Positions 1-64,000 of a stretch of DNA of 64,000 bases are shown here, piece by piece. This DNA comes from an uncultured Planctomycetales bacterium. GTDB taxonomy: Bacteria; Omnitrophota; Gorgyraeia; Zapsychrales; Fredricksoniimonadaceae. Made by a program: the position numbers and the translations under genes. The notes under the pieces are model-generated. The model was not told the origin of the DNA. It worked only from the letters and a program-made list of their open reading frames with translations, and ran no database searches. Every line of letters begins with the position of its first letter. The stretch's first letter is position 1. The stretch lies in contig CAZFNI010000001.1 of the NCBI GenBank assembly GCA_964520655.1, forward strand, positions 122,283-186,282, written 5' to 3'.

Positions 1-351
1 AATAAAGGGCAAGCCATGGTCAAGGTGGGAGATGATTTTGTGTCTTTGACCCGTGAACTGTTGGAGAAAAGTATTGGTGCGGCATCTTTTCATGATAAAG
101 CTTTCTTAAGCAAGGATATTTTAGGGGTCGATCAAGCCATGAAAACCTCTCCTGATAAAGATCTGGGCGGTATCGACCTTTCTAGATCATTGCACCTGCA
201 GACGAACAGCAATGGGCAAAGTATAGACATTCAGATTGATGCCGCTGTTTTAGAACAGCTCCAGCAAGCGCAGGGCTTAACACCGCGTATCCTCTATATC
301 GAGCCATTAAAGAGCATGCAGGGCTTCCTCGGTATTTTACCTTTTAAATAA
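1..351 (+). CDS. hypothetical protein. The frame is open from window position 1, so this is probably a 5'-truncated C-terminal fragment. First in-window ATG is at 16.
   Basis: Open frame 1 from position 1 to the stop at 351. I see no recognisable motif. A -10-like TATAAT lies downstream at ~377. Confidence 0.35.
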   Translation, partial: NKGQAMVKVGDDFVSLTRELLEKSIGAASFHDKAFLSKDILGVDQAMKTSPDKDLGGIDLSRSLHLQTNSNGQSIDIQIDAAVLEQLQQAQGLTPRILYIEPLKSMQGFLGILPFK

Positions 352-26888: not shown

Positions 26889-28556
<1,668 letters not shown>

Positions 28557-28654: not shown

Positions 28655-29116
28655 ATGAAAAATCAAATGAATGGCTCAGTGATGTTGTGTGTGGTGATCG
28701 CGGCAGTTATTGTTCTGACGGGATGCACATCCATGTCTTGTTCTAAAAAAAGCACCTGTCCTGTTAAAAAAGAGTCAACAGCTATAAAAGATCAGGCTGC
28801 CGCAAAACCGGTTGTTCCCCAAGCGGCAGAAGGCTCCATTAAAAGTGATGATGCCACTGTTCTTAGCAGCGGTTTTAATGCCGTATGGCTGGCATCCCAG
28901 AAAACGATACAGCAAATGGGTTTAGTCAGTATCAGTGACAGGTCTGAAGGGCATATTCAGGCGCGTATACGTATGGCAGTGGTGGATGTTAATATTGAAA
29001 AGGTAGATGCCAAAAGCACTCGTGTGAAAGTCAACGCGCTTAAAGATGCTGCCATAGATGATGCGCTTAACGCGGAAATATTTGGCAAGATCAAAGCAGC
29101 TTCCGTGCTGTATTAA
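28655..29116 (+). CDS. putative lipoprotein
   Basis: ATG at 28655 after the terminator. Lipobox LTGC in MKNQMNGSVMLCVVIAAVIVLTGCTS. Confidence 0.5.
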   Translation: MKNQMNGSVMLCVVIAAVIVLTGCTSMSCSKKSTCPVKKESTAIKDQAAAKPVVPQAAEGSIKSDDATVLSSGFNAVWLASQKTIQQMGLVSISDRSEGHIQARIRMAVVDVNIEKVDAKSTRVKVNALKDAAIDDALNAEIFGKIKAASVLY

Positions 29117-29237: not shown

Positions 29238-32200
29238 ATGTTTCAACGATTATTCCACTATTTCGTTACAATGGCTTTTTTCACATCAGTAAGTTTACCT
29301 GTGTTTGCCCAACTTCCAGCGATCAATCTTCCGGAACCAGGCGCCGCTGTCACCGTAAGCGCTGTTTATCAGCCGGTGTTGATCAAAGGGGTCAAGGTTG
29401 ACTCCAAGCATCCATTACATCTGGAATTTATTGTCGATCCTAACGGTCTTTCTATTCAAGACAAATCTTTACGAGCCCAAACCCTGCGTTCTGTCAGGTA
29501 TTTTTTAGCTGCGCTTACTGTCCCCAATGATCAATTATGGGTCAATCTTTCGCCGTATGAGAAACAACGCATTATCCCGGATGGTCTTTCCGCCACTGAA
29601 ATGGGGAGGGATCTGCTGGCACAGGATTATCTGCTTAAGCAGTTGACCGCGACATTATTGAGCCCAACGGCGTCGCCAGGTAAAGAATTCTGGGAACGTG
29701 TTTATCGTCAGGGCAGCCACAGCAAACAGGGAGATCCCGTCCGTATTAATGCTTTCCATAAAGTTTGGATCGTTCCGGATCTTGCAGAGATTAGGGAACA
29801 TAACGGGGTCGCGGTCATTGCGAAAAGCCGTTTAAAGGTCATGCTGGAAGAGGATTATCTGGCAGTAAAAAAGAATGCTAGAACGAACGTTACTGAGGGG
29901 AAAGACCGTGCGTCAACTGAATTCATGCGTGCTGTCATCCTCCCTGAACTGGAACGGGAGGTCAATGAAGGAGCGAATTTTAGTATTGTCCGCCAAGTCA
30001 ATGATGCGCTCTTATTAGCGGCATGGTTCAAGCAAAGGGTCAGACAGGGCGTCCTGGCCTCTGTCTACACAGACCGCAACAAGATCGATGGTATTGACCT
30101 TCAGGATAAAACAGCCAAAGAAAAGATCTATACTCGTTATTTGAAGGCATTTAAAAAGGGCGTTTATAATCAGATCAGGGAGGATGTTGACCCATTGACC
30201 CATCTGAAGATGCCGCGTAAATATTTTTCTGGAGGATATGATGGGACGCATCCATTATTCGTTGTCCAGCCGGCTTCAGAACTTTCCATGATAGAGGCTG
30301 CTGGTGGTGCTCGAGCACTGCTTGCGCCTGTTGATCTAATGGTCATGGCTGATCGGGCTCAAGTTTCCCACGTCACGGCCCAGGAGCGCCTGCAGGAGAT
30401 TAGGCATGACGGGTACGCTGGTTTTCCTGTGGTTGTTGGTGATCAAGACCTTCCGTCTGGAATGACTTATGCATTAAGTTTTTATGATGCCACGGCCGGG
30501 GAAAAGAATAATCCTCTACGGGCTCTGATCAAGGCGGGGAAATTACGCGCTGGGCCGGATTTTAAGTTATTGATCGATGGGGTTCAGGACGGGGATGGTA
30601 TCCTGGTGTCAACCGACAGTGAGGTAGAAGTGGATCGGGTGCTGGTCAAGATACTAAGCGGTGATCAACAAGCGGCTGCATTTGATGCCTGGAAAAAGAA
30701 AGCCCGCAGCGCCGCCATTAAACCATTGGCCATCCATACTTCCAGCATGATCGCCCGCCCAACTGAAGTGCTGTATCGATATGGTATTCTTAAGTTGTTG
30801 ATGTCAAAAGATACGGTTTCCATGAAAGAGATCATCGATCATGTTCGTTCCCTGGTTGTTGATGGAACAATCATTCGAAATAATACACCTAATACCCAGT
30901 ATATTTTTGCTGTCCTGCGTGCATATGCCTCGCTGGGTTGGTTGACCTTTGCGGGAGAGTCGGCCAGTGAAGAGATGGTGTTCTCTTTGACAGAGCGTGG
31001 TCAACAGGCGTTGACTGCTGCAAAGAGCTATGCGGCAGTTGCTGATGCTATCCCAGAGTTTGACAAGATCGTTGACCATTTGTTCAACCGTTCATCGGTG
31101 CTGCTTTTGCCTGCTGGCGCCGCTTCATTGCGATCCATGGCTCTAAGTTCTCAACAGGGGTGGGGGTTGCCGGATAATATGGACGAAGAGGTTCGCCATT
31201 TGGTCCGCGGGCAATTGGACGGTTATCTGATCACCAATCTTGCCCTGGCGTTGCATATGGAAGGTGTATTTCGTTTGATCAATGCTGATCTTGACCTGGA
31301 CATGGATGCTATTGTGCGTTCGAGGAAAATTAGCGGGAATACAGATGAACTTAAGGCGGCGCTGGATATTCTAGCCAATGCTGGATTCCTGCGTGAGTAT
31401 GGGGCAGGACGGTACCATGTGACCTCGGAAGGGGTTGTTGCGTTCGACAGGGTCTTGTCATACGGGGTCCCCGTATCTTACAGGCCAAGTTATGACCTGG
31501 CGGAACGTTTTTTGTTCGGAGACGCAAAGCAGATCCCGCGCATGGATGATGAAGGGCATGAATTGCTTGTCTATCGCTACTTGAACGTCCTTGGTTCCGG
31601 TGCCTCGCATGCTACTTATTTTAAGCAAGTTGACAAGATGGTTGTCCAGATGATCCAGCAGCGTTTTAACAGCGGGGACATTCCTGAGCCAGAAGCATTG
31701 ACAACCCTGGCGCCTTTTGTATTGTCATTCGCTGATACCGGCTCCGGTGACGGGAAGTTTTTGGCGCACATTTATCATGTTATTGTGAAGCAAACGCGTT
31801 ACGGCGAGCTGATGCGGGCATATCCACATCTTTATAAGATCGATATGGTGGGGGTGGATTATAACGGTAAATCAAGAGAGGCCACCAGCGCGACACTATC
31901 AGCAGAACGGATCGAACATTCAGTCATTTTCGGGGACATCAATGAGCCTGCTGATATTGTGCGTGACGTGAACAAAGAGCTTGCCAGGAAAAACCAGGGG
32001 TCGCGTCTGTTGGTGATCCATACCCGGACATTCCTGGATCACAATCGTCCCTGGACAGGGATTAAAAATGTGGAACAGGCAAAAGCGCGCGTGTCTTCGT
32101 CAACAGGGACTTATGGCTGGCGCGGTGAGGCGATCCCCAATAATGTCGTCGAGCAGAATCTGTATGAACACTTCAAGTCTTGGGCGGACGCATTAAGTTC

Positions 32201-32681
32201 AGCTGGTCAGAAGGACTTGATCGTGATCGAACTGCACACGGTGCCTCCTGCGATAGCGGCTGTGAATATTGGCCGCACGCTGGATGTTCCTTATTTCTTG
32301 TCGCATGCCTTCTCAGATCAGCTCATCATTGAGTTCCCGGTTTATGATGCCAGGGTCAAGGAGGCTGGATTTGTCCGGCACCCGGATGCTTCGTTCCACA
32401 AACGGTTTCCTGAAGGGGATCTGACCACGGTATCGGTCGATTACTGGATGCTGCCGGACGTTGTTGTGCCTCCCGCCAAAGCAGGCGGGGAGAGTGATAT
32501 GGCCTCTGCGGCGGATGTCGGCGGTATCAACCTTGATCCTCGTTTGGGGCTGCTACGCATTGACACCGGCAAAGAACCTGTGACGCCAGGAGAAACACGG
32601 CCGCTGCCGATCTCTGATATGGATATCAAAGGTTTATACCCCGTACTGATCAAGATCATTCCTTTAAGAAATGAGCAATGA
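29238..32681 (+). CDS. exported paralog 1: shared ~330-aa N-terminal module (ends PRKYFSGG) fused to a C-terminal class I SAM-dependent O-methyltransferase-like domain
   Basis: Signal peptide MAFFTSVSLPVFA. N-module blocks LWVNLSPYE, GRDLLAQDYLLKQLTATL, NAFHKVWIV and LKVMLEEDYLA. MTase motif I FADTGSGDG, acidic MVGVD, FGDINEP (like GGDMF of OMTs) and LLVIHTRTFLDHNRPW (like ILHDW). Confidence 0.6.
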   Translation: MFQRLFHYFVTMAFFTSVSLPVFAQLPAINLPEPGAAVTVSAVYQPVLIKGVKVDSKHPLHLEFIVDPNGLSIQDKSLRAQTLRSVRYFLAALTVPNDQLWVNLSPYEKQRIIPDGLSATEMGRDLLAQDYLLKQLTATLLSPTASPGKEFWERVYRQGSHSKQGDPVRINAFHKVWIVPDLAEIREHNGVAVIAKSRLKVMLEEDYLAVKKNARTNVTEGKDRASTEFMRAVILPELEREVNEGANFSIVRQVNDALLLAAWFKQRVRQGVLASVYTDRNKIDGIDLQDKTAKEKIYTRYLKAFKKGVYNQIREDVDPLTHLKMPRKYFSGGYDGTHPLFVVQPASELSMIEAAGGARALLAPVDLMVMADRAQVSHVTAQERLQEIRHDGYAGFPVVVGDQDLPSGMTYALSFYDATAGEKNNPLRALIKAGKLRAGPDFKLLIDGVQDGDGILVSTDSEVEVDRVLVKILSGDQQAAAFDAWKKKARSAAIKPLAIHTSSMIARPTEVLYRYGILKLLMSKDTVSMKEIIDHVRSLVVDGTIIRNNTPNTQYIFAVLRAYASLGWLTFAGESASEEMVFSLTERGQQALTAAKSYAAVADAIPEFDKIVDHLFNRSSVLLLPAGAASLRSMALSSQQGWGLPDNMDEEVRHLVRGQLDGYLITNLALALHMEGVFRLINADLDLDMDAIVRSRKISGNTDELKAALDILANAGFLREYGAGRYHVTSEGVVAFDRVLSYGVPVSYRPSYDLAERFLFGDAKQIPRMDDEGHELLVYRYLNVLGSGASHATYFKQVDKMVVQMIQQRFNSGDIPEPEALTTLAPFVLSFADTGSGDGKFLAHIYHVIVKQTRYGELMRAYPHLYKIDMVGVDYNGKSREATSATLSAERIEHSVIFGDINEPADIVRDVNKELARKNQGSRLLVIHTRTFLDHNRPWTGIKNVEQAKARVSSSTGTYGWRGEAIPNNVVEQNLYEHFKSWADALSSAGQKDLIVIELHTVPPAIAAVNIGRTLDVPYFLSHAFSDQLIIEFPVYDARVKEAGFVRHPDASFHKRFPEGDLTTVSVDYWMLPDVVVPPAKAGGESDMASAADVGGINLDPRLGLLRIDTGKEPVTPGETRPLPISDMDIKGLYPVLIKIIPLRNEQ

Positions 32682-32687
32682 ACCGTG

Positions 32688-35600
32688 ATGGAAAACCATC
32701 GAAAATCTCTACATGTAATTTTATCTCTGGTCGTATTTATCAGCGGTTTTTTATCGTCTTTGCCTGAAAACTCTTGGGCAAAACATTCATCCGATCTCTC
32801 CATTAATCTGCCCCCTGCGGGAACAATGGTGACATTAAGCCCGCAATATGAGCCCATTACCATCAAGGGCCTGACAGTAGTCAAGAATGATCCTTTTCGC
32901 TTCGACTTTATTATGACTACAGGTGATGATAATAAATTACAAGGTGAAGCCCTGAAGCTGGAGGGAGAGAAACTGATCCGTTACTTTCTTGCCTCTTTAG
33001 CTGTTCCTGAGCAAGACCTGTGGGTTAATCTTTCGCCATATGAAGGCAGCAGGGTCGTTCCTCCTGCTCTTGGAGATACAGAGCTCGGCCGTGACATGCT
33101 CGCGCAGGATTACATTTTAAAACAATTGACCGCGTCGTTGATCTATCCGGAAAAAGAGTTGGGTAAGAAATTCTGGGACAAGGTGTATGCCCAAATGCAG
33201 GCTCAGTACGGCAAGACCGTCAATATTCCGGTCAATACGTTCAATAAAGTTTGGATCATGGCGGATCAAGCGGAAGTGTTTGAGAAGGATCAGACTGTGA
33301 TGGTGACCAAAAGCCGCTTGAAAGTCATGTTGGAGGAGGATTATTTGGCAGCGACTCGTCATGAAGCATCGGGTCCTGCCTGGGCAGCATCTGTTTCGTC
33401 CTCGCACCACCCATCCCCCGGTGGGGTAGCAAACCTAAAATCTACGTTTCCCCTGGTGCTGCGGTCAAAACAGAGTGTGACCTTTGGGAACACCCGGTAT
33501 GAGGGTGCTGCCCAGTCACCCGATGCCGGCAAGACGGATACTCAAGAAGTGATCCGGCAGATCATCCTGCCTGAGATTGAAAAAGAAGTCAACGAAGGCA
33601 AGAATTTTGCGTCATTGCGGCAGATCTTTAATGCGATCATTCTGGCAAAATGGTTTAAAGAGAATTTAAGAGATTCTATTATTAGTCAGATCTATGGGGA
33701 TAAAAGTAAGGTTAAAGGAATTGAAGTGCAAGACAAAGAGATTGCTCAAAAGATCTATGAGCAGTATGTGAGGGCGTATAAAAAAGGTGTCTTTAATTAC
33801 ATCAAGGTCGAAAAAGGGGATGAGCGTTTGTCATCTGTGCCAAGAAAGTATTTCTCTGGTGGTGTTGTGGGGCGCGTTACTATCACAAGGATTTCGGAAA
33901 TAGACGCAGGAACTGCAAGCAGTCTAAAAGACCATGCCATGGTGTTTTCAACTGTTTTGAATCTGGCCTCGGGGGTTAACCCGCCGGCATATAAGATTGT
34001 ACCGATGGTCTCAGATAAGGCAGATATGGCAGGTTTATGGAAAGATCTCAATGATCCTGCAAAAGTTCAGATAAGAATGGATCAGCACAGGATAAATTTT
34101 GTGACAAGGCACGGCACATTGTCTTTTGTAGGGGAGTATTTCAAAGACAAGCCCGATGCTTTACAGAAGATTCGTTATGCCAAACAGGTCTATTTAAGTG
34201 TGTTATCGTTTCGTGATATGTCAGAGATCGAAGCTGTAATACCGGCATTGAGCGTAATTGAAAAGAGGGCGGTATTATCATGGATCGACAGTAAATTCAC
34301 CTCCGCAGGAACGCCTGTCTCAGATAAATTAGGCAGGATCCGTGACATTATTTATGGAAATGAGGAGGATATGGCCATGACTGCCGGTGCGTTTATCACG
34401 GCATTTACAGGTAGGAATGGTTCAGGGGACAGGACCATCATGATCAATGTGTTAAATGAGCTATCAAAGCCGCCATTTGTCCGTGTTCCTAAGACAATAT
34501 TGGGGGAGTATGATATTTATCCTGTGAATGATTATGTTTTAATGAGGGTTAGTAAAGATGCGCAAAAGGGAAAAATGAATTGTGTTTTTGAGGTGGACCA
34601 AGGTGAGATCGGTAGTATTGAAATGGTTGTTGATCAGTCATGGTATGAGGCGCATTCTTTCGCGGATATGATCATGTTGATGAAAGAATTGGCGCAGCAT
34701 TATCTCAGTGATCTGGCCCTGGTGATGTCCGGTTATGTCGGTGTTCGTGCTGATGATATTAGGGTGGTGGGGAATGTTTATTTCTCAAATTTGCAGAATG
34801 ATTGGGACGATGGCGTAGAAATAATCAAGGATCTGCAAATGCTGGGATGGTTTATGGAACAAGGGGCCGTACCCAAATTTGCATTTGACCGGAGAAAAAC
34901 ACGTGTCGATATTGATTATGGAGAGGGTTTGCCTGTTCTTACTTTTGAGTCCAGGGAGGTTAATGGGAAAAAGGTTTTGGATAAGGTTATGTATAAAAAG
35001 GCGGGAGATGATGTCCCGGTGCTGATGGTTCTTGTTGGCCGGGATGGGGGCAAGCTGCCTTGGGTTAAAAAGAGCGTAATGAACGCCTTGGCAGAATTCA
35101 GGAGATCGCTCATTTTGTATATGCTCAAGAGATATCCAGAGCAGAGCCGCGTTATCCTGCACTTGATGTCGTCCAAAGATAGGGAGTCTTTGGAATCAAC
35201 CAACAGTCATTTATTAGGTGACTATGGCTATGCGCTGTACAAAGTTGAAGAGGATTATATGCGACTGCCTATAGCATCAACGATCACTGCGGGAACAGAA
35301 CATCATCCTCCTGCCAGAATATTAACTTTTCCTGGGGTATATTCTCCTGATTATGTAAGAGCCGGTTTGGAAGTAGCGTCTTATTTAGCTCACCCCAATG
35401 CTATAAGATATTCAAAGACGGATCCAGAGTTTATTTATCCTCCTGCCGGTTTGAGCTTGTATGCGGGGTATTTTTCAAGAATAAGCAAGGCGCAGAAGAT
35501 TATTCTAGAGGAGATCGAGAGAGCCTTTAGACAGGAGGGGCTTGTGCTGTATTCAAGGCCGATCGACCATTTTGGCCTTGAGCGGGAACGCAGAGAGGGG

Positions 35601-36263
35601 CTGCATATTGGTGAAGGGGGGGTGAATATATATTTTACGGCTGATCAGGAAAATGTTGCTTATCTTGATCCGCTGCGTCATCAGATCATTAGATCATTAT
35701 GGTTAGCCTTATATGGATTAGATCGAGATGAACAAAGGCTGCAGCAGCAAGAACATGATCGGAAAATGGCTGCTTTTATCAAGTCGTTGTTTAACGAGGG
35801 TGAAACAAATGCCTATCTTTTTCAACCTGTTAATGAAGAAGGCTATATTATTCTAATGAAAGAAGGACGAGAGATCGGACAGGTTGCTATTTTACCGTCA
35901 GGACAGGGAGGTATTCAGGTTGTTATTCAAAGATTTATTCCAACAATGGAGATATTTCAGTATGTTTTGCCGCAAAAGGACATTCAAGGACTGACATGGT
36001 CGGATATTTTGATCGATGTGCTCGATATTCTGGAACAAAACGAGCGAGGCGATCGGGACCAAGGAATGCTGTCGAATACTGGGGGTATTGATCTGAGAGC
36101 TCAAAATGCACCTCTTTCTGTTATTACTCAAGGTGCAGGAGCCGTGATGCGGATCGATCGGTCTATTATTGATCAGATCGAAAGACAAGGCATAGAAGGT
36201 CTTATTCCTGTGGTTCTTAAGATATCCCCATTAGAAAGTACGCGTATTCTCTTTAAACAGTAA
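32688..36263 (+). CDS. exported paralog 2: same N-terminal module (with a ~55-aa low-complexity insertion) fused to an unassigned ~800-aa C-terminal region
   Basis: Signal peptide ending in SWA. Blocks LWVNLSPYEGSRVVPPALGDTELGRDMLAQDYILKQLTASLIYPEKELGKKFWDKVYA, VNTFNKVWIMAD and PRKYFSGG. The start follows the paralog-1 stop by 6 nt (GTG 32685 / ATG 32688). Confidence 0.6.
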   Translation: MENHRKSLHVILSLVVFISGFLSSLPENSWAKHSSDLSINLPPAGTMVTLSPQYEPITIKGLTVVKNDPFRFDFIMTTGDDNKLQGEALKLEGEKLIRYFLASLAVPEQDLWVNLSPYEGSRVVPPALGDTELGRDMLAQDYILKQLTASLIYPEKELGKKFWDKVYAQMQAQYGKTVNIPVNTFNKVWIMADQAEVFEKDQTVMVTKSRLKVMLEEDYLAATRHEASGPAWAASVSSSHHPSPGGVANLKSTFPLVLRSKQSVTFGNTRYEGAAQSPDAGKTDTQEVIRQIILPEIEKEVNEGKNFASLRQIFNAIILAKWFKENLRDSIISQIYGDKSKVKGIEVQDKEIAQKIYEQYVRAYKKGVFNYIKVEKGDERLSSVPRKYFSGGVVGRVTITRISEIDAGTASSLKDHAMVFSTVLNLASGVNPPAYKIVPMVSDKADMAGLWKDLNDPAKVQIRMDQHRINFVTRHGTLSFVGEYFKDKPDALQKIRYAKQVYLSVLSFRDMSEIEAVIPALSVIEKRAVLSWIDSKFTSAGTPVSDKLGRIRDIIYGNEEDMAMTAGAFITAFTGRNGSGDRTIMINVLNELSKPPFVRVPKTILGEYDIYPVNDYVLMRVSKDAQKGKMNCVFEVDQGEIGSIEMVVDQSWYEAHSFADMIMLMKELAQHYLSDLALVMSGYVGVRADDIRVVGNVYFSNLQNDWDDGVEIIKDLQMLGWFMEQGAVPKFAFDRRKTRVDIDYGEGLPVLTFESREVNGKKVLDKVMYKKAGDDVPVLMVLVGRDGGKLPWVKKSVMNALAEFRRSLILYMLKRYPEQSRVILHLMSSKDRESLESTNSHLLGDYGYALYKVEEDYMRLPIASTITAGTEHHPPARILTFPGVYSPDYVRAGLEVASYLAHPNAIRYSKTDPEFIYPPAGLSLYAGYFSRISKAQKIILEEIERAFRQEGLVLYSRPIDHFGLERERREGLHIGEGGVNIYFTADQENVAYLDPLRHQIIRSLWLALYGLDRDEQRLQQQEHDRKMAAFIKSLFNEGETNAYLFQPVNEEGYIILMKEGREIGQVAILPSGQGGIQVVIQRFIPTMEIFQYVLPQKDIQGLTWSDILIDVLDILEQNERGDRDQGMLSNTGGIDLRAQNAPLSVITQGAGAVMRIDRSIIDQIERQGIEGLIPVVLKISPLESTRILFKQ

Positions 36264-36929: not shown

Positions 36930-39407
36930 ATGTCGTCTAAATCTGAGCCCAGATCAGGTTGGTCATTCTTAAATAAAGCCATGACCAAAGACGCATTGAA
37001 AGAATCATTCCAAGTTAATCGTCAATACACGCTTTCCAAAGACCAATATACCGCAACGATGTATGATAATTATCTCGCATTGTCGCTGGCTGTCCGTGAC
37101 CGTATTGTGGAGCGGTGGATCAAGACCCAACAGAATTATCACAAAAGCAATGCCCGTCGTGTGTATTATTTATCGATGGAGTTTTTGATCGGAAGGCTGT
37201 TGGGCAATAATATCTATAACCTTGGGATAGAGAAACCGGTCTTTGATTCTTTGGAAGAATTAGGCTTGGATGCGGATGATATCCGCGAGCAGGAAGTAGA
37301 TGCGGGTTTAGGCAACGGTGGTTTGGGGCGTTTAGCAGCGTGCTTTTTGGATTCCATGGCAACGCTTGGCATCCCATCTCACGGGTATGGCATCCGGTAT
37401 GATTACGGGATATTCAATCAGAAGATCAAAGATGGTTTTCAAGTGGAGTTGCCGGATGAATGGCTGCGATTAGGAAGTCCCTGGGAGTTCGCCCGTCCGG
37501 AGAATACAGTCAAAGTGTCTTTTTACGGCAGAGTCCATATGGAGCCGGATGCTAATGATAAATTAAAGGTGCGCTTGATCAATACACAGGATATTATGGC
37601 TGTTCCTTATGATATTCCTGTTCCCGGCTACAAGAACGATGTTGTCAACACCTTGAGGCTTTGGTCGGCGCGCAGTTCCCAGGATTTCGATTTTGAATAT
37701 TTCAAGTCGGGGGATTATGAGCAGGCCGTATACAAAAAGATCTTGTCGGAGAATATCTCCAAGGTCTTGTATCCTGCGGATGATATCTTAAGGGGAAGGG
37801 AGTTGCGCTTAAAGCAGGAATATTTTTTTACAGCTGCTTCAGTCGCAGATATTCTCAGGCGTTTTAAAGTGGAGAACCACAACATTGCCGATCTCCCTAA
37901 GAAAGTAGTTATCCAGTTAAATGATACGCATCCAACATTAGCCATCGTTGAATTGATGCGGCTGCTGTTAGACGAACATGGCATGGATTGGGAGGCTGCC
38001 TGGGATATTACGACCCAGGTGTTTGCGTACACGAACCATACTTTGATGCCGGAAGCGTTGGAATGCTGGCCGGTGGATATGTTTGAGACATTGTTGCCGC
38101 GTCACATGCAGATCATTTACGAGATCAATGCACGTTTCCTGCGTCAGGTAGCTCAGCAGCATTTGGGGGACGATCAGCTGCTGGGGCGGATATCCATCAT
38201 CGAAGAGGGGAATCCTAAAAAGATCCGGATGGCGTATTTGGCCATTGTCGGCAGTTTTTCTGTTAACGGGGTCTCAGCGCTGCATTCGGATCTGCTGAAA
38301 GAAAAATTGTTCAAGGATTTTTACACCTTGACCCCGGAAAAATTCAATAATAAGACTAATGGGATCACCCAGAGGCGCTGGTTGCTTAAAGCCAATCCTC
38401 GTCTATCATCCCTGCTGGTGGACACGATCGGGGATGAGTGGGTCAAGGATCTGACCCAATTGCAAGCCATTGAACAATTGGCCAAGAACAAAGATTTCGG
38501 GATCAAATGGTTTGAGGTAAAAAAGCAAAATAAAGAAACGCTCATCCGTTATATCCAGTCCTCCATGAATATCACGCTTGACCCCAATTCGATCTTTGAC
38601 GTTCAGATCAAGCGCATCCATGAGTATAAGCGCCAGATCTTGTTTGCCTTGTACATCATTTCTCAATATCTGCGTATCAAGAATGATCCGGCCAAGTTCA
38701 TTTATCCGCGCACCTTCTTGATCGGTGGGAAGGCGGCGCCGTCGTATCATATGGCCAAGTTGACCATCAAGTTTATCAACAGCATCGCAGATATCATCAA
38801 TCATGATAAGACGGTGAAAGACAAGATCCGACTGGTCTTTTTAGAGAATTATCGGGTTTCTTTGGCGGAGAAAGTCTTTCCAGCCAGCGACCTCTCTGAA
38901 CAGATATCGACGGCATCAACGGAAGCGTCAGGGACCGGGAACATGAAGTTCATGCTTAACGGTGCGTTAACGATCGGCACATATGACGGGGCTAATATTG
39001 AAATGGCGCAGAAAGCCGGTGAAGATAATATTTTCATCTTTGGTTTAAGAGCACATGAAGTGGCGGCGGTAAAACAAAAAGGATATGATCCCAAAGCCTA
39101 TATTGAAAGTTCGCCGGTGTTAAAAGAGATCTTCTGGTTGATCCAGGGAGGATTCTTCAGTCCCCATAAGCCTGATCTTTTTGCACCGATCGTTCATGCG
39201 TTGACAACGTATGATCCATATCTTGTATGTGCGGATTTTGATAGTTATTGTCTTATGCAGGACCAGGTATCAAGAACATATCTTGATAGGAATTTATGGG
39301 TTTCTAAATCCATCATCAATGTGGCGCGCAGCGGTTTTTTCTCCAGTGACCGCACGATCCGTGAGTATGCCAGTGATATTTGGAAGATAGGACCGAGGCA
39401 GGAGTAA
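36930..39407 (+). CDS. glgP: glycogen / alpha-glucan phosphorylase
   Basis: PLP-site signature EASGTGNMKFMLNGALTIGTYDGANIE. 825 aa. Confidence 0.9.
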   Translation: MSSKSEPRSGWSFLNKAMTKDALKESFQVNRQYTLSKDQYTATMYDNYLALSLAVRDRIVERWIKTQQNYHKSNARRVYYLSMEFLIGRLLGNNIYNLGIEKPVFDSLEELGLDADDIREQEVDAGLGNGGLGRLAACFLDSMATLGIPSHGYGIRYDYGIFNQKIKDGFQVELPDEWLRLGSPWEFARPENTVKVSFYGRVHMEPDANDKLKVRLINTQDIMAVPYDIPVPGYKNDVVNTLRLWSARSSQDFDFEYFKSGDYEQAVYKKILSENISKVLYPADDILRGRELRLKQEYFFTAASVADILRRFKVENHNIADLPKKVVIQLNDTHPTLAIVELMRLLLDEHGMDWEAAWDITTQVFAYTNHTLMPEALECWPVDMFETLLPRHMQIIYEINARFLRQVAQQHLGDDQLLGRISIIEEGNPKKIRMAYLAIVGSFSVNGVSALHSDLLKEKLFKDFYTLTPEKFNNKTNGITQRRWLLKANPRLSSLLVDTIGDEWVKDLTQLQAIEQLAKNKDFGIKWFEVKKQNKETLIRYIQSSMNITLDPNSIFDVQIKRIHEYKRQILFALYIISQYLRIKNDPAKFIYPRTFLIGGKAAPSYHMAKLTIKFINSIADIINHDKTVKDKIRLVFLENYRVSLAEKVFPASDLSEQISTASTEASGTGNMKFMLNGALTIGTYDGANIEMAQKAGEDNIFIFGLRAHEVAAVKQKGYDPKAYIESSPVLKEIFWLIQGGFFSPHKPDLFAPIVHALTTYDPYLVCADFDSYCLMQDQVSRTYLDRNLWVSKSIINVARSGFFSSDRTIREYASDIWKIGPRQE

Positions 39408-39427
39408 AACTAGAACAGGAGTGAGGT

Positions 39428-61186: not shown

Positions 61187-64000
61187 ATGTTCAAGAAAAC
61201 ACTTCACGTCATTGTCATTGTTTGTTTTGCGGCGACTTTTATGACCCCTTTAAGAAAGGCTGAGGCCGAGTCTTTGGTGTTGCCGCAACCTGGCACCATG
61301 GTCAATTTAAGCCCCGCATTCTCTCCGGTGCTCATTAAAGGAATAAAGATCCATCCCGATAATCCTTTGTTATTTGATTTCATCATTGATACCGGTCATA
61401 CGGGTTTTAAAGCCCAGCAGCCGCAGTTGCGTCAGGAAACAGAAAAGCTTATCAAATATTTTTTGGCGACTTTGACGATCCCAGAGAATGAACTGTGGGT
61501 TAACTTGTCCCCGTATGAAAAAGACCGCATTATCCCCGACACATTAGGCCAGACAGAATTGGGCAGGGACATGCTGGCGCAGGATTATATCTTAAAGCAG
61601 TTGACTGCCTCCTTGATCTATCCGGAAAAAGAATTAGGGAAAGATTTTTGGAACAGGGTGTATGCCAAGTCCCAGGATCGTTTTGGTAAAGCGCAGGTAC
61701 CGGTCAATACCTTTAACAAAGTGTGGATCATGGCGGATAAGGCGAAGATCTATGTCCATGACAATACCGCGTTTGTTGTTGCGTCGCATTTAAAGGTCAT
61801 GCTCGATAAAGATTATTTGGCCTTAAAGAAGAATCAGAAGACCGCAGCAAACACAAAAGATGTGACATCCGACATCGTACGTGAGATTGTTCTGCCCGAG
61901 ATCGAAAAGGAAGTCAACACGGGCAAGAACTTCGCCAATTTACGTCAGGTGTATCAGTCGATGATTTTAGCGACTTGGTATAAGAACAATTTGAAAGAGG
62001 CTTTATTAAACCAGGTCTATACGGATAAGTCCAAGTTAAACGGGGTCACCGCCGACGATAAAGCAGTGACGGAAAAGATCTACGCGCAGTATTTGGAAGC
62101 GTATAAGAAGGGTGTTTTCAATTATATTAAAGACGATCCCGCATCAACAACGCCGCGCAAATATTTCTCCGGCGGGGCTGTTGGTCTTCACGCACAAGAT
62201 ATCAAGGTGGTTGGAAGCAATGACGTAGATTTTGCCATGTTCGCCAAGACGGGTGCAACAGGTGATCTGCTGCAAGCGACGGCAGCGGTAGAGAAAGATG
62301 CGGCGATGCAGACAGGTCTTCCTGTAAATAACCCTAGACAAACTGAAAGTTGGAATAAGCTTCAGGTGCTTGCATCCAATAGGAGTCAGTATGATTTAAG
62401 AGAATTATTCCGTACTGATCCAGCTCGTTCCGTGAATATGCTTGTCGCGCTCAATGATCAAGTCGAGGTGGATTTTTCAAAGAATCTGGTTGATGGACCG
62501 ACGTTGTCAACATTAGTGGCGTTGGCGAATGAAGTTCAATTGCCAGCAGCCATCGAAATGATGTTCCAGGGAGAGAAGATCAATGAAACAGAAGGACGTG
62601 CGGTCTTACATGTTGCTTTAAGAAATGTGACCCGCGACGCAAGCGGTGAGCTTGTGACGGCGAATGGTCCTATTCTGGTCGACGGAGAAGATGTTATGCC
62701 TCATGTTATTGATGTGTTAAAGAGCGTGGAAGTCTTTACCAAAAAAGTGCAGTCTGGTCAGTGGGTGGGGTTGTCTGGTAAAAAGATCAAAAATATCGTT
62801 AATGTTGGGATTGGCGGTTCTGATCTTGGTCCGCGGATGGCTGCTGAAGCGTTAAAACCTTACAAAGCAGGGGATGTTGATGCATATTTCGTTTCTAATG
62901 TTGACGGTACTGATGCCCAAGAGGTAATGAAGAAACTGGACCCGCAAGAAACTCTTGTGATCGTTGCTTCCAAAACATTCACAACACAAGAAACAATGAA
63001 AAATGCAGATACTTTGAAAAATTGGGTCTTAAAAAGTTATCAGGGTGATATGGAGGCGATTAAAAAGCATTTTGTGGCTGTTTCAACAGCTAAAGATAAA
63101 GTTGAGGCATTTGGTATTGATACGGCCAATATGTTTGAATTCTGGGATTGGGTCGGCGGGCGTTATTCTGTTTGGTCTGCGATCGGGCTTTCTCTGGCAA
63201 CGTATATCGGGTTTGATAACTTTCTTGAGTTTTTGGCTGGAGGAAGAGAGGCGGATGAGCATTTTAGATCTCAGCCGTTTGAAAAAAACATTCCGGTATT
63301 GAAAGCTTTATTGAATGTGTGGTACGGGAACTTCTTAGGAGCGGAAAGTTTTGCGATCTTACCTTATGATCAATACATGCACCGTTTTCCTGCCTTTGCG
63401 CAGCAATTTTTTATGGAAAGCAACGGCAAGAGTGTTGACCGGGAGGGGAAGCCGGTGGGTTATCAAACTGGTTTGATCGCGTGGGGGGAACCGGGCACAA
63501 ATGGGCAGCATTCGTTTTATCAATTGATCCATCAAGGGACGCGTCTGGTTCCAGCAGATTTTATAGGGATAGCTCAAACACATAATCCATTGCCAGGGCA
63601 TCATCCAATGCTGTATTCGAATTTTGTTGCCCAGACGGAAGCGTTGGCTTTTGGCGCGACAAAAGATGAGGTAAGGAAAGCACTTGAAGCAGACCCAAAA
63701 TATCAAGGTAAGGATCTTGATTGGCATGCCATGCAGCAGACGTTCGCTGGGAATAAGCCCACGACCTCGATCGAGGTTGATCAGCTTTCTCCAAGGACAT
63801 TGGGTAATCTGGTGGCTATGTATGAGCAGCAGATTTTTACGGAAGGGATCATTTGGAATATCTATTCTTTTGACCAGTGGGGCGTTCAGCTTGGCAAGAA
63901 GATGTCTGACAGTGTGCTTCCGTTCTTAACTGGAAAGAGGAGTATTAGTGAACTTCCTCAGTCAGGGCTTTCGGCATCTGCTCAGCGGCAGGTTCTTAAG
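61187..64000 (+). CDS. pgi: exported paralog 3: shared N-terminal module fused in-frame to a complete glucose-6-phosphate isomerase. 3' end lies beyond the window.
   Basis: Signal peptide MFKKTLHVIVIVCFAATFMTPLRKAEA. N-module blocks LWVNLSPYEKDRIIPDTLGQTELGRDMLAQDYILKQLTASLIYPEKELGKDFWNRVYA...PRKYFSGG. From ~62340: ESWNKLQ...MFQGEKINETEGRAVLHVALRN...GIGGSDLGP...FVSNVDG...SKTFTTQET...FWDWVGGRYSVWSAIGLS...MESNGK...GEPGTNGQHSFYQLIHQG (PGI signatures). Frame 2 is open from 61187 to the window end. Confidence 0.6.
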   Translation, partial: MFKKTLHVIVIVCFAATFMTPLRKAEAESLVLPQPGTMVNLSPAFSPVLIKGIKIHPDNPLLFDFIIDTGHTGFKAQQPQLRQETEKLIKYFLATLTIPENELWVNLSPYEKDRIIPDTLGQTELGRDMLAQDYILKQLTASLIYPEKELGKDFWNRVYAKSQDRFGKAQVPVNTFNKVWIMADKAKIYVHDNTAFVVASHLKVMLDKDYLALKKNQKTAANTKDVTSDIVREIVLPEIEKEVNTGKNFANLRQVYQSMILATWYKNNLKEALLNQVYTDKSKLNGVTADDKAVTEKIYAQYLEAYKKGVFNYIKDDPASTTPRKYFSGGAVGLHAQDIKVVGSNDVDFAMFAKTGATGDLLQATAAVEKDAAMQTGLPVNNPRQTESWNKLQVLASNRSQYDLRELFRTDPARSVNMLVALNDQVEVDFSKNLVDGPTLSTLVALANEVQLPAAIEMMFQGEKINETEGRAVLHVALRNVTRDASGELVTANGPILVDGEDVMPHVIDVLKSVEVFTKKVQSGQWVGLSGKKIKNIVNVGIGGSDLGPRMAAEALKPYKAGDVDAYFVSNVDGTDAQEVMKKLDPQETLVIVASKTFTTQETMKNADTLKNWVLKSYQGDMEAIKKHFVAVSTAKDKVEAFGIDTANMFEFWDWVGGRYSVWSAIGLSLATYIGFDNFLEFLAGGREADEHFRSQPFEKNIPVLKALLNVWYGNFLGAESFAILPYDQYMHRFPAFAQQFFMESNGKSVDREGKPVGYQTGLIAWGEPGTNGQHSFYQLIHQGTRLVPADFIGIAQTHNPLPGHHPMLYSNFVAQTEALAFGATKDEVRKALEADPKYQGKDLDWHAMQQTFAGNKPTTSIEVDQLSPRTLGNLVAMYEQQIFTEGIIWNIYSFDQWGVQLGKKMSDSVLPFLTGKRSISELPQSGLSASAQRQVLK

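What the first reader, a model, noticed from the sequence alone, without database searches (positions are those of the whole stretch)
29238..36263. Tandem pair of giant exported paralogs sharing an unrecognised ~330-aa N-terminal module with unrelated C-terminal domains
Two adjacent genes of 1147 and 1192 aa each start with a Sec signal peptide followed by a conserved module. Shared blocks are LPxPGxxVxLSP, FDFI, LWVNLSPYE, GRDMLAQDYILKQLTASL, VNTFNKVWI, LKVMLEEDYLA, ILPEIEKEVNEGKNF, YKKGVFNYI and a terminal PRKYFSGG. After PRKYFSGG the two proteins diverge completely. Paralog 1 carries a family-2-like SAM O-methyltransferase. Paralog 2 carries an ~800-aa region I cannot assign. I do not recognise the N-module as any characterised domain. 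Its pairing with interchangeable cargo looks like a modular targeting, anchoring or scaffolding device. A third copy occurs ~25 kb downstream (see the Pgi fusion finding).
Basis: partly seen in the sequence, partly recalled or inferred. Interest (0 to 1): 0.85.

Follow-up and report, generated by a model that had tools for sequence, protein, structure and literature searches.

The report
Omnitrophota head-and-tail protein carrier family
The two genes belong to a very large, unnamed protein family found only in Omnitrophota bacteria, in which a signal peptide, a conserved "head" of unknown fold and a short conserved "tail" bracket almost any cargo, including ordinary glycolytic enzymes, and the near-absence of cysteine suggests the whole protein is sent out of the cytoplasm.

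Summary
**Observation.** It is real. P1 (29238-32681, 1147 aa) and P2 (32685-36263, 1192 aa) share a head of about 330 aa (41% identity, E 2e-81). A third copy at 61187 is fused to a complete glucose-6-phosphate isomerase. It also missed the tail of a fourth member at 1-348.

**Family size and range.** The head defines at least 8,409 clusters at 50% identity. Named hits are almost all Omnitrophota, and the head always sits at the N-terminus.

**Architecture.**
- A Sec-type signal peptide comes first.
- The head follows and ends in PRKYFSGG.
- One or more cargo units follow, joined by D-x-A-M-L motifs.
- The tail comes last: GGIDL...PVIINIxP.

A 438-aa member has head plus tail and no cargo.

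**Cargo.** It is mostly cytoplasm-type: PGI, PGK, enolase, helicases, methyltransferases.

**Cysteine.** The mature part has about 0.07% cysteine. Neighbouring genes have 1.0-1.1% and ordinary signal-peptide proteins 0.74%. Nearly half of the family's few cysteines lie in the signal peptide.

**Best reading (confidence about 0.5).** This is a phylum-specific export or surface-display carrier. The function is not proven.

The parts
29238..29309 (+). P1 signal peptide (aa 1-24, MFQRLFHYFVTMAFFTSVSLPVFA|Q), predicted Sec type with a VFA|Q cleavage site
   Evidence: A hydrophobic segment spans aa 5-27. Family-wide, the n-region is net positive, an h-region follows, and an A-x-A|Q motif lies about 5 aa before the invariant LNLPxPG.
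29310..30236 (+). P1 head domain (aa 25-333), ending in PRKYFSGG (nt 30213-30236)
   Evidence: The AF2 model has pLDDT 77.5 and pTM 0.69. No PDB fold match was found.
30237..32519 (+). P1 cargo: a linker with a degenerate junction motif DRAQV (nt 30351-30365), then AprA-like N and winged-helix domains (aa 653-762) and an MT2-like SAM methyltransferase (aa 777-1067)
   Evidence: Pfam matches are PF23525 (E 6e-63), PF23589 and PF23526. P1 has no cysteine in 1147 aa.
32520..32678 (+). P1 tail (aa 1095-1147): GGINLDP...GLYPVLIKIIPLRNEQ
   Evidence: See, and the family tail alignment.
32685..32780 (+). P2 signal peptide (aa 1-32, ...SSLPENSWA|K)
32781..33863 (+). P2 head domain (aa 33-393). It has an insertion of about 55 aa, rich in S/P/G/A, relative to P1. 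It ends in PRKYFSGG (nt 33840-33863).
33864..36080 (+). P2 cargo: an orphan region of about 740 aa, divided by junction motifs DHAMV (nt 33930-33944), DMAMT (nt 34368-34382) and DQGML (nt 36057-36071)
   Evidence: There is no Pfam, NCBIfam, PHROGs or PADLOC hit. The only database hit is itself.
36081..36260 (+). P2 tail (aa 1133-1192): GGIDLRAQN...GLIPVVLKISPLESTRILFKQ
61187..62176 (+). Copy 3 signal peptide plus head (aa 1-330), ending in PRKYFSGG (nt 62153-62176)
62177..64000 (+). Copy 3 linker with DFAM (nt 62228-62239) and DAAM (nt 62297-62308), then a complete glucose-6-phosphate isomerase that starts at the Met of DAAM (nt 62306). The gene runs off the window end.
   Evidence: PF00342 matches at E 9e-204 over model positions 1-479 of 486. 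The cargo is about 57% identical to ordinary 550-aa PGIs. The motifs I recall as the PGI active-site motifs (MESNGK, GQHSFYQ, WGVQLGK) are readable.
1..348 (+). C-terminal end of a fourth family member, cut by the window edge: DQAM junction (nt 130-141), then tail GGIDLSRS...GLTPRILYIEPLKSMQGFLGILPFK (nt 166-348). The stop codon is at 349-351.

Best explanation
P1, P2, the PGI fusion and the gene fragment at the left edge are local members of a very large family specific to Omnitrophota. I read them as export carriers.

**Build of each protein.**
1. A cleavable Sec-type signal peptide.
2. A conserved head of about 310 aa, alpha/beta, with no known fold. It starts at an invariant LNLPxPGTMV and ends at PRKYFSGG.
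3. One or several cargo units, which are whole enzymes or orphan domains. They are joined by a short D-x-A-M-(L/V) junction motif.
4. A conserved tail of 55-100 aa: GGIDL, about 35 residues, then G(F/L)xPVIINIxP..LLGL.

Head and tail form one unit. They are inherited together and can exist without cargo.

**Proposed mechanism.**
- Sec moves the unfolded chain across the cytoplasmic membrane, and the signal peptide is cut off.
- Head and tail then act as the handles by which an unidentified envelope machinery sorts, holds or passes the chain to or through the outer layers.
- Cysteine has been purged from the mature chain, probably because it must stay free of disulfides during or after that passage.
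- The junction motifs may be processing or docking sites.

**Shown here.** The architecture, the family size and taxonomic restriction, head-tail co-inheritance, the signal-peptide features, and cysteine exclusion from the mature part only.

**Inferred.** Export itself, anything beyond the inner membrane, the roles of head, tail and junction motif, and the final location of the cargo.
For: **Homology and family size.**
- P1 and P2 heads align at 41% identity, E 2e-81, and a third copy is in the window.
- There are 1,178 hits in the word-indexed search, nearly all named Omnitrophica or Omnitrophota.
- There are 8,409 clusters at 50% identity with E <= 1e-3 and 6,852 with E <= 1e-30. The match always starts at residue 1-35, in proteins of 376-4,969 aa among the 150 listed.
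- At least 590 confirmed loci lie in Omnitrophota genomes, with several per genome.

**Architecture.**
- 107 members occur in 80 loci, and the head is always at the start of its ORF.
- 68 of 77 complete members carry exactly one GGIDL tail in the last ~110 aa. So do 93 of 146 representatives.
- P0082 (438 aa, seen on 5 contigs) is head plus a 15-aa linker plus tail.

**Head-tail unit.**
- The nearest head neighbour has the same tail type in 77 of 85 cases (chance is about 55%; 0 of 500 permutations reach the observed value).
- In the AF2 model of P0082, tail residues 371-390 reach pLDDT 83-91, and a strand appears at WVNLSP.

**Signal peptide.** The n-region net charge is most often +2 to +4. 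The mean hydrophobicity of the best 12-residue window is 2.5. An A-x-A|Q motif precedes LNLPxPG.

**Cysteine.**
- Cargo plus tail has 0.07% Cys and the head 0.03%. Other ORFs of at least 300 aa in the same loci have 1.02%.
- 67 of 109 cargoes (median 861 aa) have no Cys.
- Ordinary signal-peptide-like proteins in the same loci have 0.74%.
- 176 of the family's 393 Cys lie in the first 45 aa.
- P1 has 0 Cys in 1147 aa, P2 has 1 in 1192, and copy 3 has 1 in 937, which lies in its signal peptide.

**Junction motif.**
- D.AM is 3.5-fold enriched (0.89 against 0.25 per 1000 aa). Synonymous sites vary and there is no upstream Shine-Dalgarno signal, so selection acts on the peptide.
- It sits after the head, before the tail, and between PGK and enolase in L004.

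**No known domain.**
Against: **Cargo type.** Much of the cargo is of a kind that normally works in the cytoplasm with ATP, NAD, SAM or nucleic acids. Examples are PGI, PGK, enolase, class I aldolase, PGM, UDP-glucose pyrophosphorylase, starch synthase, SNF2 and DEAD helicases, response-regulator receivers and histidine-kinase ATPase domains.

**Iron-sulfur motifs.** Some cargoes keep radical-SAM CxxxCxxC triads. As far as I know, iron-sulfur clusters are not inserted after Sec export.

**Redundant signals.** Some cargo units keep their own TAT, Sec or lipoprotein signal directly after the head. That is redundant if the head's signal peptide already exports the chain.

**No machinery found.** No conserved neighbouring gene turned up.

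**Weak points in my tests.**
- Signal-peptide cleavage was judged by simple rules, not by SignalP and not by experiment.
- The AF2 hint of head-tail docking rests on pLDDT alone. I had no PAE or coordinates, and the two models used different alignments.
Confidence: 0.5

Rival explanations
1. **Polyprotein with proteolytic release.** Whole genes have been fused in frame behind a common head. The chain is then cut at the D-x-A-M-L junctions, and perhaps after the two double-glycine sites (...FSGG and ..GG-IDL). Cutting frees individual enzymes, either in the cytoplasm or after export. The head could be the cis-acting protease or the handle for one. This can coexist with the export model.
For: - The junction motif is selected at the peptide level and sits at unit boundaries. 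In L004 it lies after the head, at PGK|enolase (DAAML) and before the tail.
- Cargo units keep their native first Met. By my comparison with the E. coli N-termini as I recall them, this holds for PGI at nt 62306 and for PGK in L001 ('KMAMTELPDSEWVGRTVFI').
- Some units keep their own TAT, Sec or lipobox signals.
- The head has invariant polar residues (S105, E108, K134, D125, D206, E241, R252) that could form an active site.
- West-Roberts et al. (10.1101/2023.11.21.568195) also raised cleavage of giant Omnitrophota proteins.
Against: - No protease fold or family was detected in the head.
- Only about half of members have a canonical motif within 120 aa of the head, and only 22 of 68 have one just before the tail.
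- The empty vehicle P0082 has no such motif.
- I have no data on actual cleavage.
- Release in the cytoplasm would not explain the cysteine depletion.
Confidence: 0.2
2. **Membrane-tethered cytoplasmic scaffold.** The N-terminal helix is an uncleaved anchor. Head and tail organise cytoplasm-type enzymes at the inner face of the membrane, as a metabolon in very small cells.
For: - The cargo is dominated by cytoplasm-type enzymes and signalling domains.
- Radical-SAM cysteine triads are retained.
- The preprint 10.64898/2026.06.07.730766 reads many giant Omnitrophota proteins as membrane-anchored with cytoplasmic bulk.
Against: - The charge distribution (positive n-region, no positive cluster after the helix) predicts an N-in/C-out orientation.
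- A conserved A-x-A|Q site follows a helix-breaking Pro.
- There is no second transmembrane segment in P1, P2 or copy 3 to bring the cargo back inside.
- Cysteine is excluded 15-fold from the mature part but not from the N-terminal helix. A cytoplasmic location does not explain this.
Confidence: 0.12
3. **Effectors delivered into prey or host cells.** Omnitrophota include predators and parasites. The head and tail would be translocation signals, and the enzyme cargo would work in the victim's cytoplasm, where ATP and cofactors are available.
For: - It reconciles an export signature with cargo that needs a cytoplasm.
- Predatory or host-dependent lifestyles are reported for the phylum (PMC10066038; PMC12583861).
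- Ankyrin, WD40, HEAT, PP2C and helicase cargoes resemble effector repertoires.
Against: - The family looks far too large and too housekeeping-like for an effector set. There are four members in this 64-kb window alone, set among ordinary genes.
- The PGI, PGK and enolase cargoes are close to standard enzymes.
- No injection apparatus is linked to these genes.
- Known injected effectors do not use Sec signal peptides.
Confidence: 0.1
4. **Nothing special.** The similarity would be low complexity, an assembly or gene-calling artefact, or an already characterised domain.
For: Many database relatives are 'partial' proteins at contig ends.
Against: - P1 and P2 align at E 2e-81.
- 37 columns are invariant across 74 sequences.
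- The ORF is intact in an independent assembly.
- Thousands of full-length relatives exist.
- No hit appears in any domain or structure library searched.
Confidence: 0.01

Closest known systems
Two-partner secretion passengers (TpsA) with an N-terminal TPS domain (type Vb secretion)
   Same: A Sec signal peptide is followed directly by a conserved domain of about 250-300 aa. Behind it sits a very long, highly variable passenger with few cysteines. The conserved N-domain is the handle recognised by the transporter.
   Different: No sequence match to the TPS domain (Pfam scan). The predicted head is alpha/beta with long helices, not a beta-helix. There is no adjacent Omp85/TpsB gene. TpsA proteins have no conserved C-terminal tail, and their passengers are not housekeeping enzymes.
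Type IX secretion cargo with a C-terminal sorting domain (CTD), Bacteroidota
   Same: An N-terminal Sec signal and a conserved C-terminal domain of about 60-100 aa flank very diverse, often very large cargo. There are many such proteins per genome, scattered around the chromosome.
   Different: No NCBIfam or Pfam CTD match. T9SS cargo has no conserved N-terminal head. As far as I know T9SS is confined to Bacteroidota and relatives. Its cargo is extracellular hydrolases and adhesins, not glycolytic enzymes.
LapA-like giant adhesins of type I secretion (N-terminal retention module, short protease site, C-terminal signal)
   Same: A conserved N-terminal module is followed by a short conserved peptide motif. 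Then come a giant variable middle and a conserved C-terminal signal region.
   Different: LapA-type substrates have no Sec signal peptide and carry RTX repeats. No RTX or retention-module match was found here. The D-x-A-M-L motif is not the LapG di-alanine site.
Giant Omnitrophota proteins ('Archaeovorins' and others; 10.1101/2023.11.21.568195; 10.64898/2026.06.07.730766)
   Same: They come from the same phylum. They have the same kind of content: methyltransferases, PGM, starch synthase, response regulators, radical SAM, HEAT and ankyrin repeats. [quoted passage not shown] Family members here reach at least 4,969 aa.
   Different: In the passages I searched by keyword, those papers do not define this head domain, the tail, the junction motif or the cysteine depletion. 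Whether the proteins above 10,000 aa start with this head was not tested.
SLH-domain or dockerin-bearing surface enzymes (S-layer or cellulosome display)
   Same: One conserved anchoring module is combined with many different enzyme cargoes. The proteins are exported and poor in cysteine.
   Different: No SLH or dockerin match. Those cargoes are extracellular polymer-degrading enzymes, and the anchoring module is single, not a head-tail pair.

Membership tests
Sec-exported proteins with a cleavable type I signal peptide | Positively charged n-region, hydrophobic h-region and small residues at -3/-1 of the cleavage site | tested here: met
   Rule-based only. In 130 family members the net n-region charge is most often +2 to +4. 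The mean hydrophobicity of the best 12-residue window is 2.5. A conserved A-x-A|Q motif lies about 5 aa before LNLPxPG. P1 has VFA|Q, P2 has SWA|K and copy 3 has AEA|E. SignalP and experiment were not available.
Two-partner secretion TpsA (TPS domain, Pfam Haemagg_act) | Sequence match to the TPS domain, and a beta-helix fold | tested here: not met
   The Pfam scan of P1 and P2 at E <= 1 gives only AprA-type domains. The AF2 model is alpha/beta with long helices.
Two-partner secretion TpsA | Adjacent TpsB (Omp85/POTRA) transporter gene | tested here: not met
   No recurrent neighbour family appears across 80 loci. The window neighbours are groEL, a CBS protein, a likely phosphorylase and similar genes.
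Type IX secretion cargo | C-terminal domain matching TIGR04183/TIGR04131-type CTD models | tested here: not met
   The NCBIfam scan of P1 and P2 at E <= 1 gives no CTD hit. The Pfam scan gives none.
Autotransporters (type Va/Ve) | A beta-barrel translocator domain of about 250-300 aa at the C- or N-terminus | tested here: not met
   No Pfam autotransporter or intimin barrel hit. The tail is only 55-100 aa. The head model is not a barrel.
RTX / LapA-like type I secretion substrates | RTX GGxGxD nonapeptide repeats and no Sec signal peptide | tested here: not met
   No RTX hit. GGIDL occurs once per protein, not as repeats. A Sec-type signal peptide is present.
AprA MT2-like SAM methyltransferases (P1 cargo only) | Pfam PF23525 above the gathering score, with the AprA N and winged-helix domains | tested here: met
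   PF23525 scores 212.9 bits (cut-off 27), PF23589 scores 37.6 and PF23526 scores 34.6.
Glucose-6-phosphate isomerase (copy 3 cargo) | Full-length PF00342 match with the active-site motifs present | tested here: met
   PF00342 scores 677.9 bits over model positions 1-479 of 486. Identity to ordinary PGIs is 55-60%. The motifs MESNGK, GQHSFYQ and WGVQLGK are present; my reading of them as the active-site motifs is from memory.
The head-tail family described here (unnamed) | Head at the extreme N-terminus ending in PRKYFSGG, plus a single C-terminal GGIDL...PVIINIxP tail | tested here: met
   P1 and P2 have both elements. Copy 3 has the head, and its C-terminus lies outside the window. The left-edge gene has the tail, and its N-terminus lies outside the window.
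Any export machinery specific to this family | A dedicated transporter, sortase or protease that recognises head, tail or junction motif | not testable with these tools
   This needs whole-genome phylogenetic profiling or experiments. The neighbourhood analysis found nothing.

The most novel reading that the evidence does not exclude
A whole bacterial phylum routes a sizeable share of its proteome through one dedicated, so far undescribed sorting system. That share includes catalytically intact core enzymes of glycolysis and sugar-nucleotide metabolism, helicases and signalling domains. The system is defined by a head of new fold, a tail and a junction motif. If so, Omnitrophota would run part of their central metabolism outside the cytoplasm (in an enlarged periplasm, on the cell surface or inside prey). 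Alternatively, they would secrete gene-fusion polyproteins that are processed after export. Either case would also give the organising principle of the giant Omnitrophota proteins.
Probability: 0.3. Interest if true: 0.95.

Novelty: new variant of a known kind. Interest (0 to 1): 0.8.

Why it matters
**Background.** Omnitrophota are widespread, uncultured, ultra-small bacteria, and some are predatory. They are known for record-size proteins whose logic is not understood.

**What this finding adds.**
- It gives a concrete, searchable grammar for a large part of their proteome: signal peptide, head, junction motif, cargo units, tail.
- It also gives a strong quantitative signature. Cysteine is depleted 15-fold in the mature chain only, which points to an unusual cellular destination.

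**If the proteins are truly exported.** Standard cytoplasmic enzymes such as PGI, PGK and enolase would be working outside the cytoplasm. That would change how metabolism in these cells is reconstructed from genomes.

**Practical consequences.**
- The head repeat helps explain why many database relatives are partial proteins that end at contig ends.
- Metabolic reconstructions that count a KEGG hit as 'cytoplasmic enzyme present' would be misleading for fused copies.
- The head and tail are obvious candidates for new Pfam families.
- They are also candidates for a portable export or display tag.

Tried and rejected
1. **D.AM as a translated ribosome-binding site plus internal start codon.** Rejected. 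154 aligned sites show no purine-rich signal upstream, and synonymous positions vary freely. A few window sites do have SD-like runs, but these are not general.
2. **A conserved partner gene next to family members.** All-against-all clustering of 797 neighbouring ORFs from 80 loci found none. The top cluster looks like antisense shadow ORFs, and the next starts with a PAS-like signalling sequence; neither was scanned against a family library.
3. **Known fold.**
   - The PDB sequence profile gave 0 hits at E <= 10.
   - The afdb50 library was not available.
4. **Phage or defence origin.** There are no PHROGs or PADLOC hits. Only 3 loci appear in 2.9 million viral contigs.
5. **PGI cargo as a single-protein test of cysteine loss.** It is weak on its own: the cargo has 0 Cys, free-standing homologues average 2.4, and 6 of 118 of them also have 0.
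6. **Identifying the source record.** The P2 look-up was not on record. The cluster look-up shows only an unnamed NCBI contig of 204,279 bp.
7. **A 70-sequence full-length alignment** failed internally. I used 45 sequences instead.
8. **Literature.** No paper in the held library describes the head, tail, junction motif or cysteine depletion. The papers were checked by keyword, not read in full. The library is not exhaustive, and Kizina et al. 2022 was not readable here.

Full report
**1. The observation**

P1 is 29238..32681 + (1147 aa, ATG). P2 is 32685..36263 + (1192 aa, GTG), three bases downstream.

BLASTP aligns P1 residues 28-336 with P2 residues 39-396 at 41% identity and 60% positives, E 2e-81. 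P2 has an insertion of about 55 residues in a loop.

tblastn of the P1 head against the window finds a third copy at 61187-62191 (46% identity, E 3e-102) and nothing else. That ORF runs off the window end. Its C-terminal part is a full-length glucose-6-phosphate isomerase (PF00342, E 9e-204, model positions 1-479 of 486).

- P1's cargo matches the AprA-type module: PF23526, PF23589, and PF23525 'AprA MT2-like' methyltransferase at E 6e-63.
- P2's cargo matches nothing in Pfam, NCBIfam, PHROGs or PADLOC. Its only hit among 5.8 billion proteins is itself.
- P1 is found intact in an independent assembly, with 1138 of 1147 residues identical and no gaps. The long ORF is therefore not an assembly artefact.

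**2.

The same BLASTP run shows a weak second match at the extreme C-termini (E 0.022). P1 has GGINLDP...GLYPVLIKIIPL and P2 has GGIDLRAQ...GLIPVVLKISPL.

A motif scan of the six-frame translation finds the same element at the left edge of the window. There, an ORF entering from outside ends ...DQAMKTSPDKDLGGIDLSRS...GLTPRILYIEPLKSMQGFLGILPFK*. The window therefore holds parts of four members. Together they cover about 10.2 kb of its 64 kb.

**3. The family**

Family size and range:
- A search with the P1 head returns 1,178 proteins. The best are E 1e-115 to 1e-89 at 42-53% identity. Almost all named ones come from Candidatus Omnitrophica or Omnitrophota MAGs, and apart from one PF00380 cargo hit none has a precomputed Pfam domain.
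- A profile of 74 heads (A1) has 37 invariant columns, including WVNLSP.E, Y.LKQ and R.YF.GG.
- The same profile finds 8,409 representatives of 50%-identity clusters at E <= 1e-3, and 6,852 at E <= 1e-30.
- In the 150 listed, the match nearly always starts within the first 35 residues (one at residue 64). The proteins range from 376 to 4,969 aa.
- In one-genome-per-species data, at least 590 stretches are confirmed. All of the 80 loci kept come from Omnitrophota-type MAGs, some auto-labelled 'uncultured Planctomycetales', with several loci per genome.
- Only 3 loci appear in 2.9 million viral contigs.

Architecture in the 80 loci:
- I found 107 members. Each has the head at the start of an ORF of 370 to more than 3,700 aa. 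All lie on the same strand as the query match, and some are tandem neighbours.
- Of 77 members that end inside a locus, 68 carry exactly one GG[IV][DN][LF] motif within the last ~110 residues. In 46 of these a strict G(F/L)xPVIINIxP pattern follows about 35 residues later, and the rest carry close variants..LPLLLGL commonly comes next. The motif occurs once per protein even in proteins of 3,000 aa.
- At least four of the nine exceptions contain masked runs.
- The tail is also found in 93 of 146 representatives.
- P0082 (438 aa, on five contigs) is head, then AGADSAAAVPAADDP, then tail. It is an 'empty vehicle'.

Head-tail linkage:
- Tails fall into at least two types: ...LDLQIKRDGNGVPLPL... 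and ...I.F.FDPAML....
- The nearest neighbour of a head carries the same tail type in 77 of 85 cases, against about 55% by chance. None of 500 label permutations reaches the observed within-minus-between identity.
- Both tail types occur in this one window, so the link is not only taxonomic.

Head and tail therefore behave as one inherited unit that brackets variable cargo.

**4. The cargo**

Pfam scans of 73 cargo regions give these families (the PGI is):
- Central carbon enzymes: phosphoglycerate kinase (several times), enolase, class I fructose-bisphosphate aldolase, an isocitrate-lyase-family domain, phosphoglucomutase, UDP-glucose pyrophosphorylase, starch synthase, glutamate dehydrogenase, PPDK_N, and the PGI of this window.
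- Other enzymes: GT2 glycosyltransferases, RmlD, ROK kinase, NUDIX, PP2C, a subtilase and methyltransferases.
- Signalling and nucleic-acid domains: response-regulator receivers, HATPase_c, and SNF2 and DEAD helicases.
- Repeats: WD40, ankyrin and HEAT.

Many cargoes, like P2's, match nothing.

The PGI cargo is 55-60% identical to ordinary 550-aa PGIs of Bacteroidota, Campylobacterota and Gammaproteobacteria. It keeps the MESNGK, GQHSFYQ and WGVQLGK motifs, which I recall as the active-site motifs.

Cargo units look like captured whole genes:
- By my comparison with E. coli Pgi from memory, the Met of 'KDAAM-QTGLPVNNPRQTESWNKLQ' aligns with the native Met1.
- In L001 the PGK unit starts 'MAMTELPDSEWVGRTVFI'.
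- Several units begin with their own TAT signal (L043 'SRRRFLGLGAAAATGAALG', L071 'GRRQFLSKLG'), Sec signal (L016, L017, L024, L026) or lipobox (L045 'VNFGC'). These come straight after the head.

**5. A junction motif**

- D-x-A-M, usually followed by L/V/I and then A/S/G/T, occurs 0.89 times per 1000 residues in members. In other ORFs of the same loci it occurs 0.25 times per 1000.
- At the 154 sites, the third positions of the Asp and Ala codons vary freely, and there is no purine-rich signal upstream. The selection is therefore on the peptide, not on an internal ribosome-binding site.
- The motif clusters in the first 60 residues after PRKYFSGG and 9-30 residues before GGIDL.
- In L004 it marks every recognisable boundary: after the head (DKAMV), at residue 670, between PGK and enolase (...LPGISVLTDAAMLSSLGG...DSRDNPT), and before the tail (DPAMM).
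- In the window it appears in P2 (DHAMV, DMAMT, variant DQGML), in copy 3 (DFAM, DAAM) and in the left-edge gene (DQAM). P1 has only a degenerate DRAQV.

Both fixed boundaries also end or begin with a double glycine (...FSGG and ..GGIDL). I note this but cannot interpret it.

**6. Where do these proteins go?**

Two independent sequence signatures point out of the cytoplasm.

The N-terminus is a textbook Sec signal:
- In 130 full-length representatives, the net charge of the n-region is most often +2 to +4.
- The best 12-residue window has a mean Kyte-Doolittle value of 2.5.
- A Pro-containing c-region ends in A-x-A|Q about five residues before the invariant LNLPxPGTMV.
- P1, P2 and copy 3 have no further hydrophobic segment that could return the chain to the cytoplasm.

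Cysteine is almost absent from the mature chain:

| Protein set | Cys content | Source |
|---|---|---|
| Family cargo plus tail (131,020 residues) | 0.07% | |
| Family head | 0.03% | |
| Other ORFs of at least 300 aa in the same loci | 1.02% | |
| Ordinary signal-peptide-like proteins in the same loci, mature part (crude classification, n = 39) | 0.74% | |

- Every other amino acid lies within 0.69-1.25 of the background.
- 67 of 109 cargoes (median 861 aa) have no cysteine at all.
- Of the 393 cysteines in 392,928 family residues, 176 lie in the first 45 residues, that is, in the signal peptide. Another 90 sit in tight clusters such as radical-SAM CxxxCxxC.
- P1 has none in 1147 residues and P2 has one. 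Copy 3 has one, and it is in the signal peptide.

Selection against cysteine that spares the cleaved leader is what one expects of chains that cross the envelope unfolded or live in an oxidising place. From general knowledge, such depletion is seen in autotransporter passengers, type I substrates and S-layer proteins.

**7. Structure**

- AF2 of the P1 head with A1 gives pLDDT 77.5 and pTM 0.69. The model has an N-terminal helix, two beta-hairpins (48-67 and 176-203) and long helices (76-94, 121-141, 223-281).
- AF2 of the empty vehicle P0082, using 45 head-plus-tail sequences, gives pLDDT 76. Tail residues 371-390 reach pLDDT 83-91, a new short strand appears at WVNLSP (104-106), and the PVIIDI segment stays below 50.
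- This suggests the first half of the tail docks on the head. I had no PAE or coordinates, and the two models used different alignments, so this is only a hint.

**8. Explanation**

The best-supported reading is an export or surface-sorting carrier system specific to this phylum. Sec takes the chain across the inner membrane. Head and tail are then the handles for sorting, retention or a further translocation step, and cysteine has been purged because of that route.

It works like the TPS domain of two-partner secretion, the C-terminal domain of type IX secretion, or the retention module of LapA-type adhesins. It is a member of none of them, because every defining feature I could test failed (see the membership table).

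The main difficulty is the cargo. Enzymes that depend on ATP, NAD or SAM, helicases and radical-SAM domains make little sense outside a cytoplasm. The units' own TAT or lipoprotein signals are also redundant behind a Sec leader.

Three rivals address this:
- **Processing of a fusion polyprotein at the junction motifs (0.2).** This is compatible with export.
- **A membrane-tethered cytoplasmic scaffold (0.12).** It fits the cargo but not the charge distribution, the A-x-A site or the cysteine pattern.
- **Delivery into prey (0.1).** It reconciles both signatures, but the family looks too large and too housekeeping-like.

No conserved neighbouring gene points to a machinery.

**9. Comparison with the literature**

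Two preprints describe giant Omnitrophota proteins.
- They report signal peptides, many transmembrane helices and the same kind of domain content: methyltransferases, PGM, starch synthase, response regulators and radical SAM.
[quoted passage not shown] The other is 10.64898/2026.06.07.730766.
- In the passages I searched by keyword, neither defines this head, the tail, the junction motif or the cysteine depletion. Nor does any other paper I could find.
- The second preprint counts PGK and enolase as present in 176 of 176 complete genomes, and PGI in 67 of 176. Whether those are fused copies is the key open question.

**10. Verdict**

The object is a real, very large, undescribed family with a new domain and an unusual architecture. 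Its logic resembles known secretion carriers, but its cargo does not. Export is the best-supported reading. Function is not shown.

Noticed in passing
window 1-351 (+): This is the end of a fourth head-tail family member, entering from outside the window. It has a DQAM junction at nt 130 and a GGIDL tail from nt 166, and its stop codon is at 349-351.
   Followed up: yes
L004:5327-12637 (cargo residues 1302-2182): Phosphoglycerate kinase and enolase lie in one polypeptide behind a head domain. A DAAML junction motif sits exactly between them.
   Followed up: partly
L043, L071, L045, L016, L017, L024, L026 (first ~100 residues after PRKYFSGG): These cargo units keep their own TAT (SRRRFLGLG..., GRRQFLSKLG), Sec or lipobox (VNFGC) signals inside the fusion, directly behind a head that already has a Sec signal. 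This is unexplained.
   Followed up: partly
L063 (cargo CPVGCTNC), P0212 (CPFACLMC), P0264 (CPFKCYFC): Radical-SAM-type CxxxCxxC triads are among the few cysteines kept in the mature part of family members. This is hard to reconcile with Sec export.
   Followed up: no
window 32781-33863 (P2 head, about aa 222-276): The P2 head carries an insertion of about 55 residues, rich in S/P/G/A, in a loop that is short in P1 and in most relatives.
   Followed up: no
window 28655-29116 (+): A small ORF lies between groEL and P1. It has a lipoprotein-like start (MKNQMNGSVMLCVVIAAVIVLTGC) and no Pfam match. The listed ORF start at 28469 overlaps the end of groEL and is probably too far upstream.
   Followed up: partly
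whole window: Nearly all long ORFs are on the + strand, and GC skew is positive in every 2-kb bin, so the cumulative skew rises steadily. The window appears to lie on one replichore with strong co-orientation of genes.
   Followed up: no
window 36930-41488 (+): Directly downstream of P2 and a CBS-domain gene lies an 825-aa ORF. It reads like an alpha-glucan phosphorylase (NGGLGRLAACFLDS motif; not run through Pfam). An ADP-forming acetyl-CoA synthetase-type protein follows it (Pfam). This gives a sugar and fermentation context next to carrier genes.
   Followed up: partly
database hits P0001-P0120: Many relatives are 'partial' proteins that stop a few hundred residues after the head, on short contigs. 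The many head copies per genome probably break short-read assemblies, so the family is under-represented and fragmented in MAGs.
   Followed up: no
L082-L084 (IMG/VR contigs): Three contigs classed as viral encode a head domain (44-45% identity). I did not check whether these are real phage genes, prophage flanks or misclassified host DNA.
   Followed up: no
family tails with long extensions (e.g. L001, L028, L053, P0201, P0257): Many longer tails continue into an acidic, low-complexity stretch. They end in a recurring extreme C-terminal pattern such as ...(E)(I/L)S(A/L/S)LN. This may be a third small conserved element.
   Followed up: no
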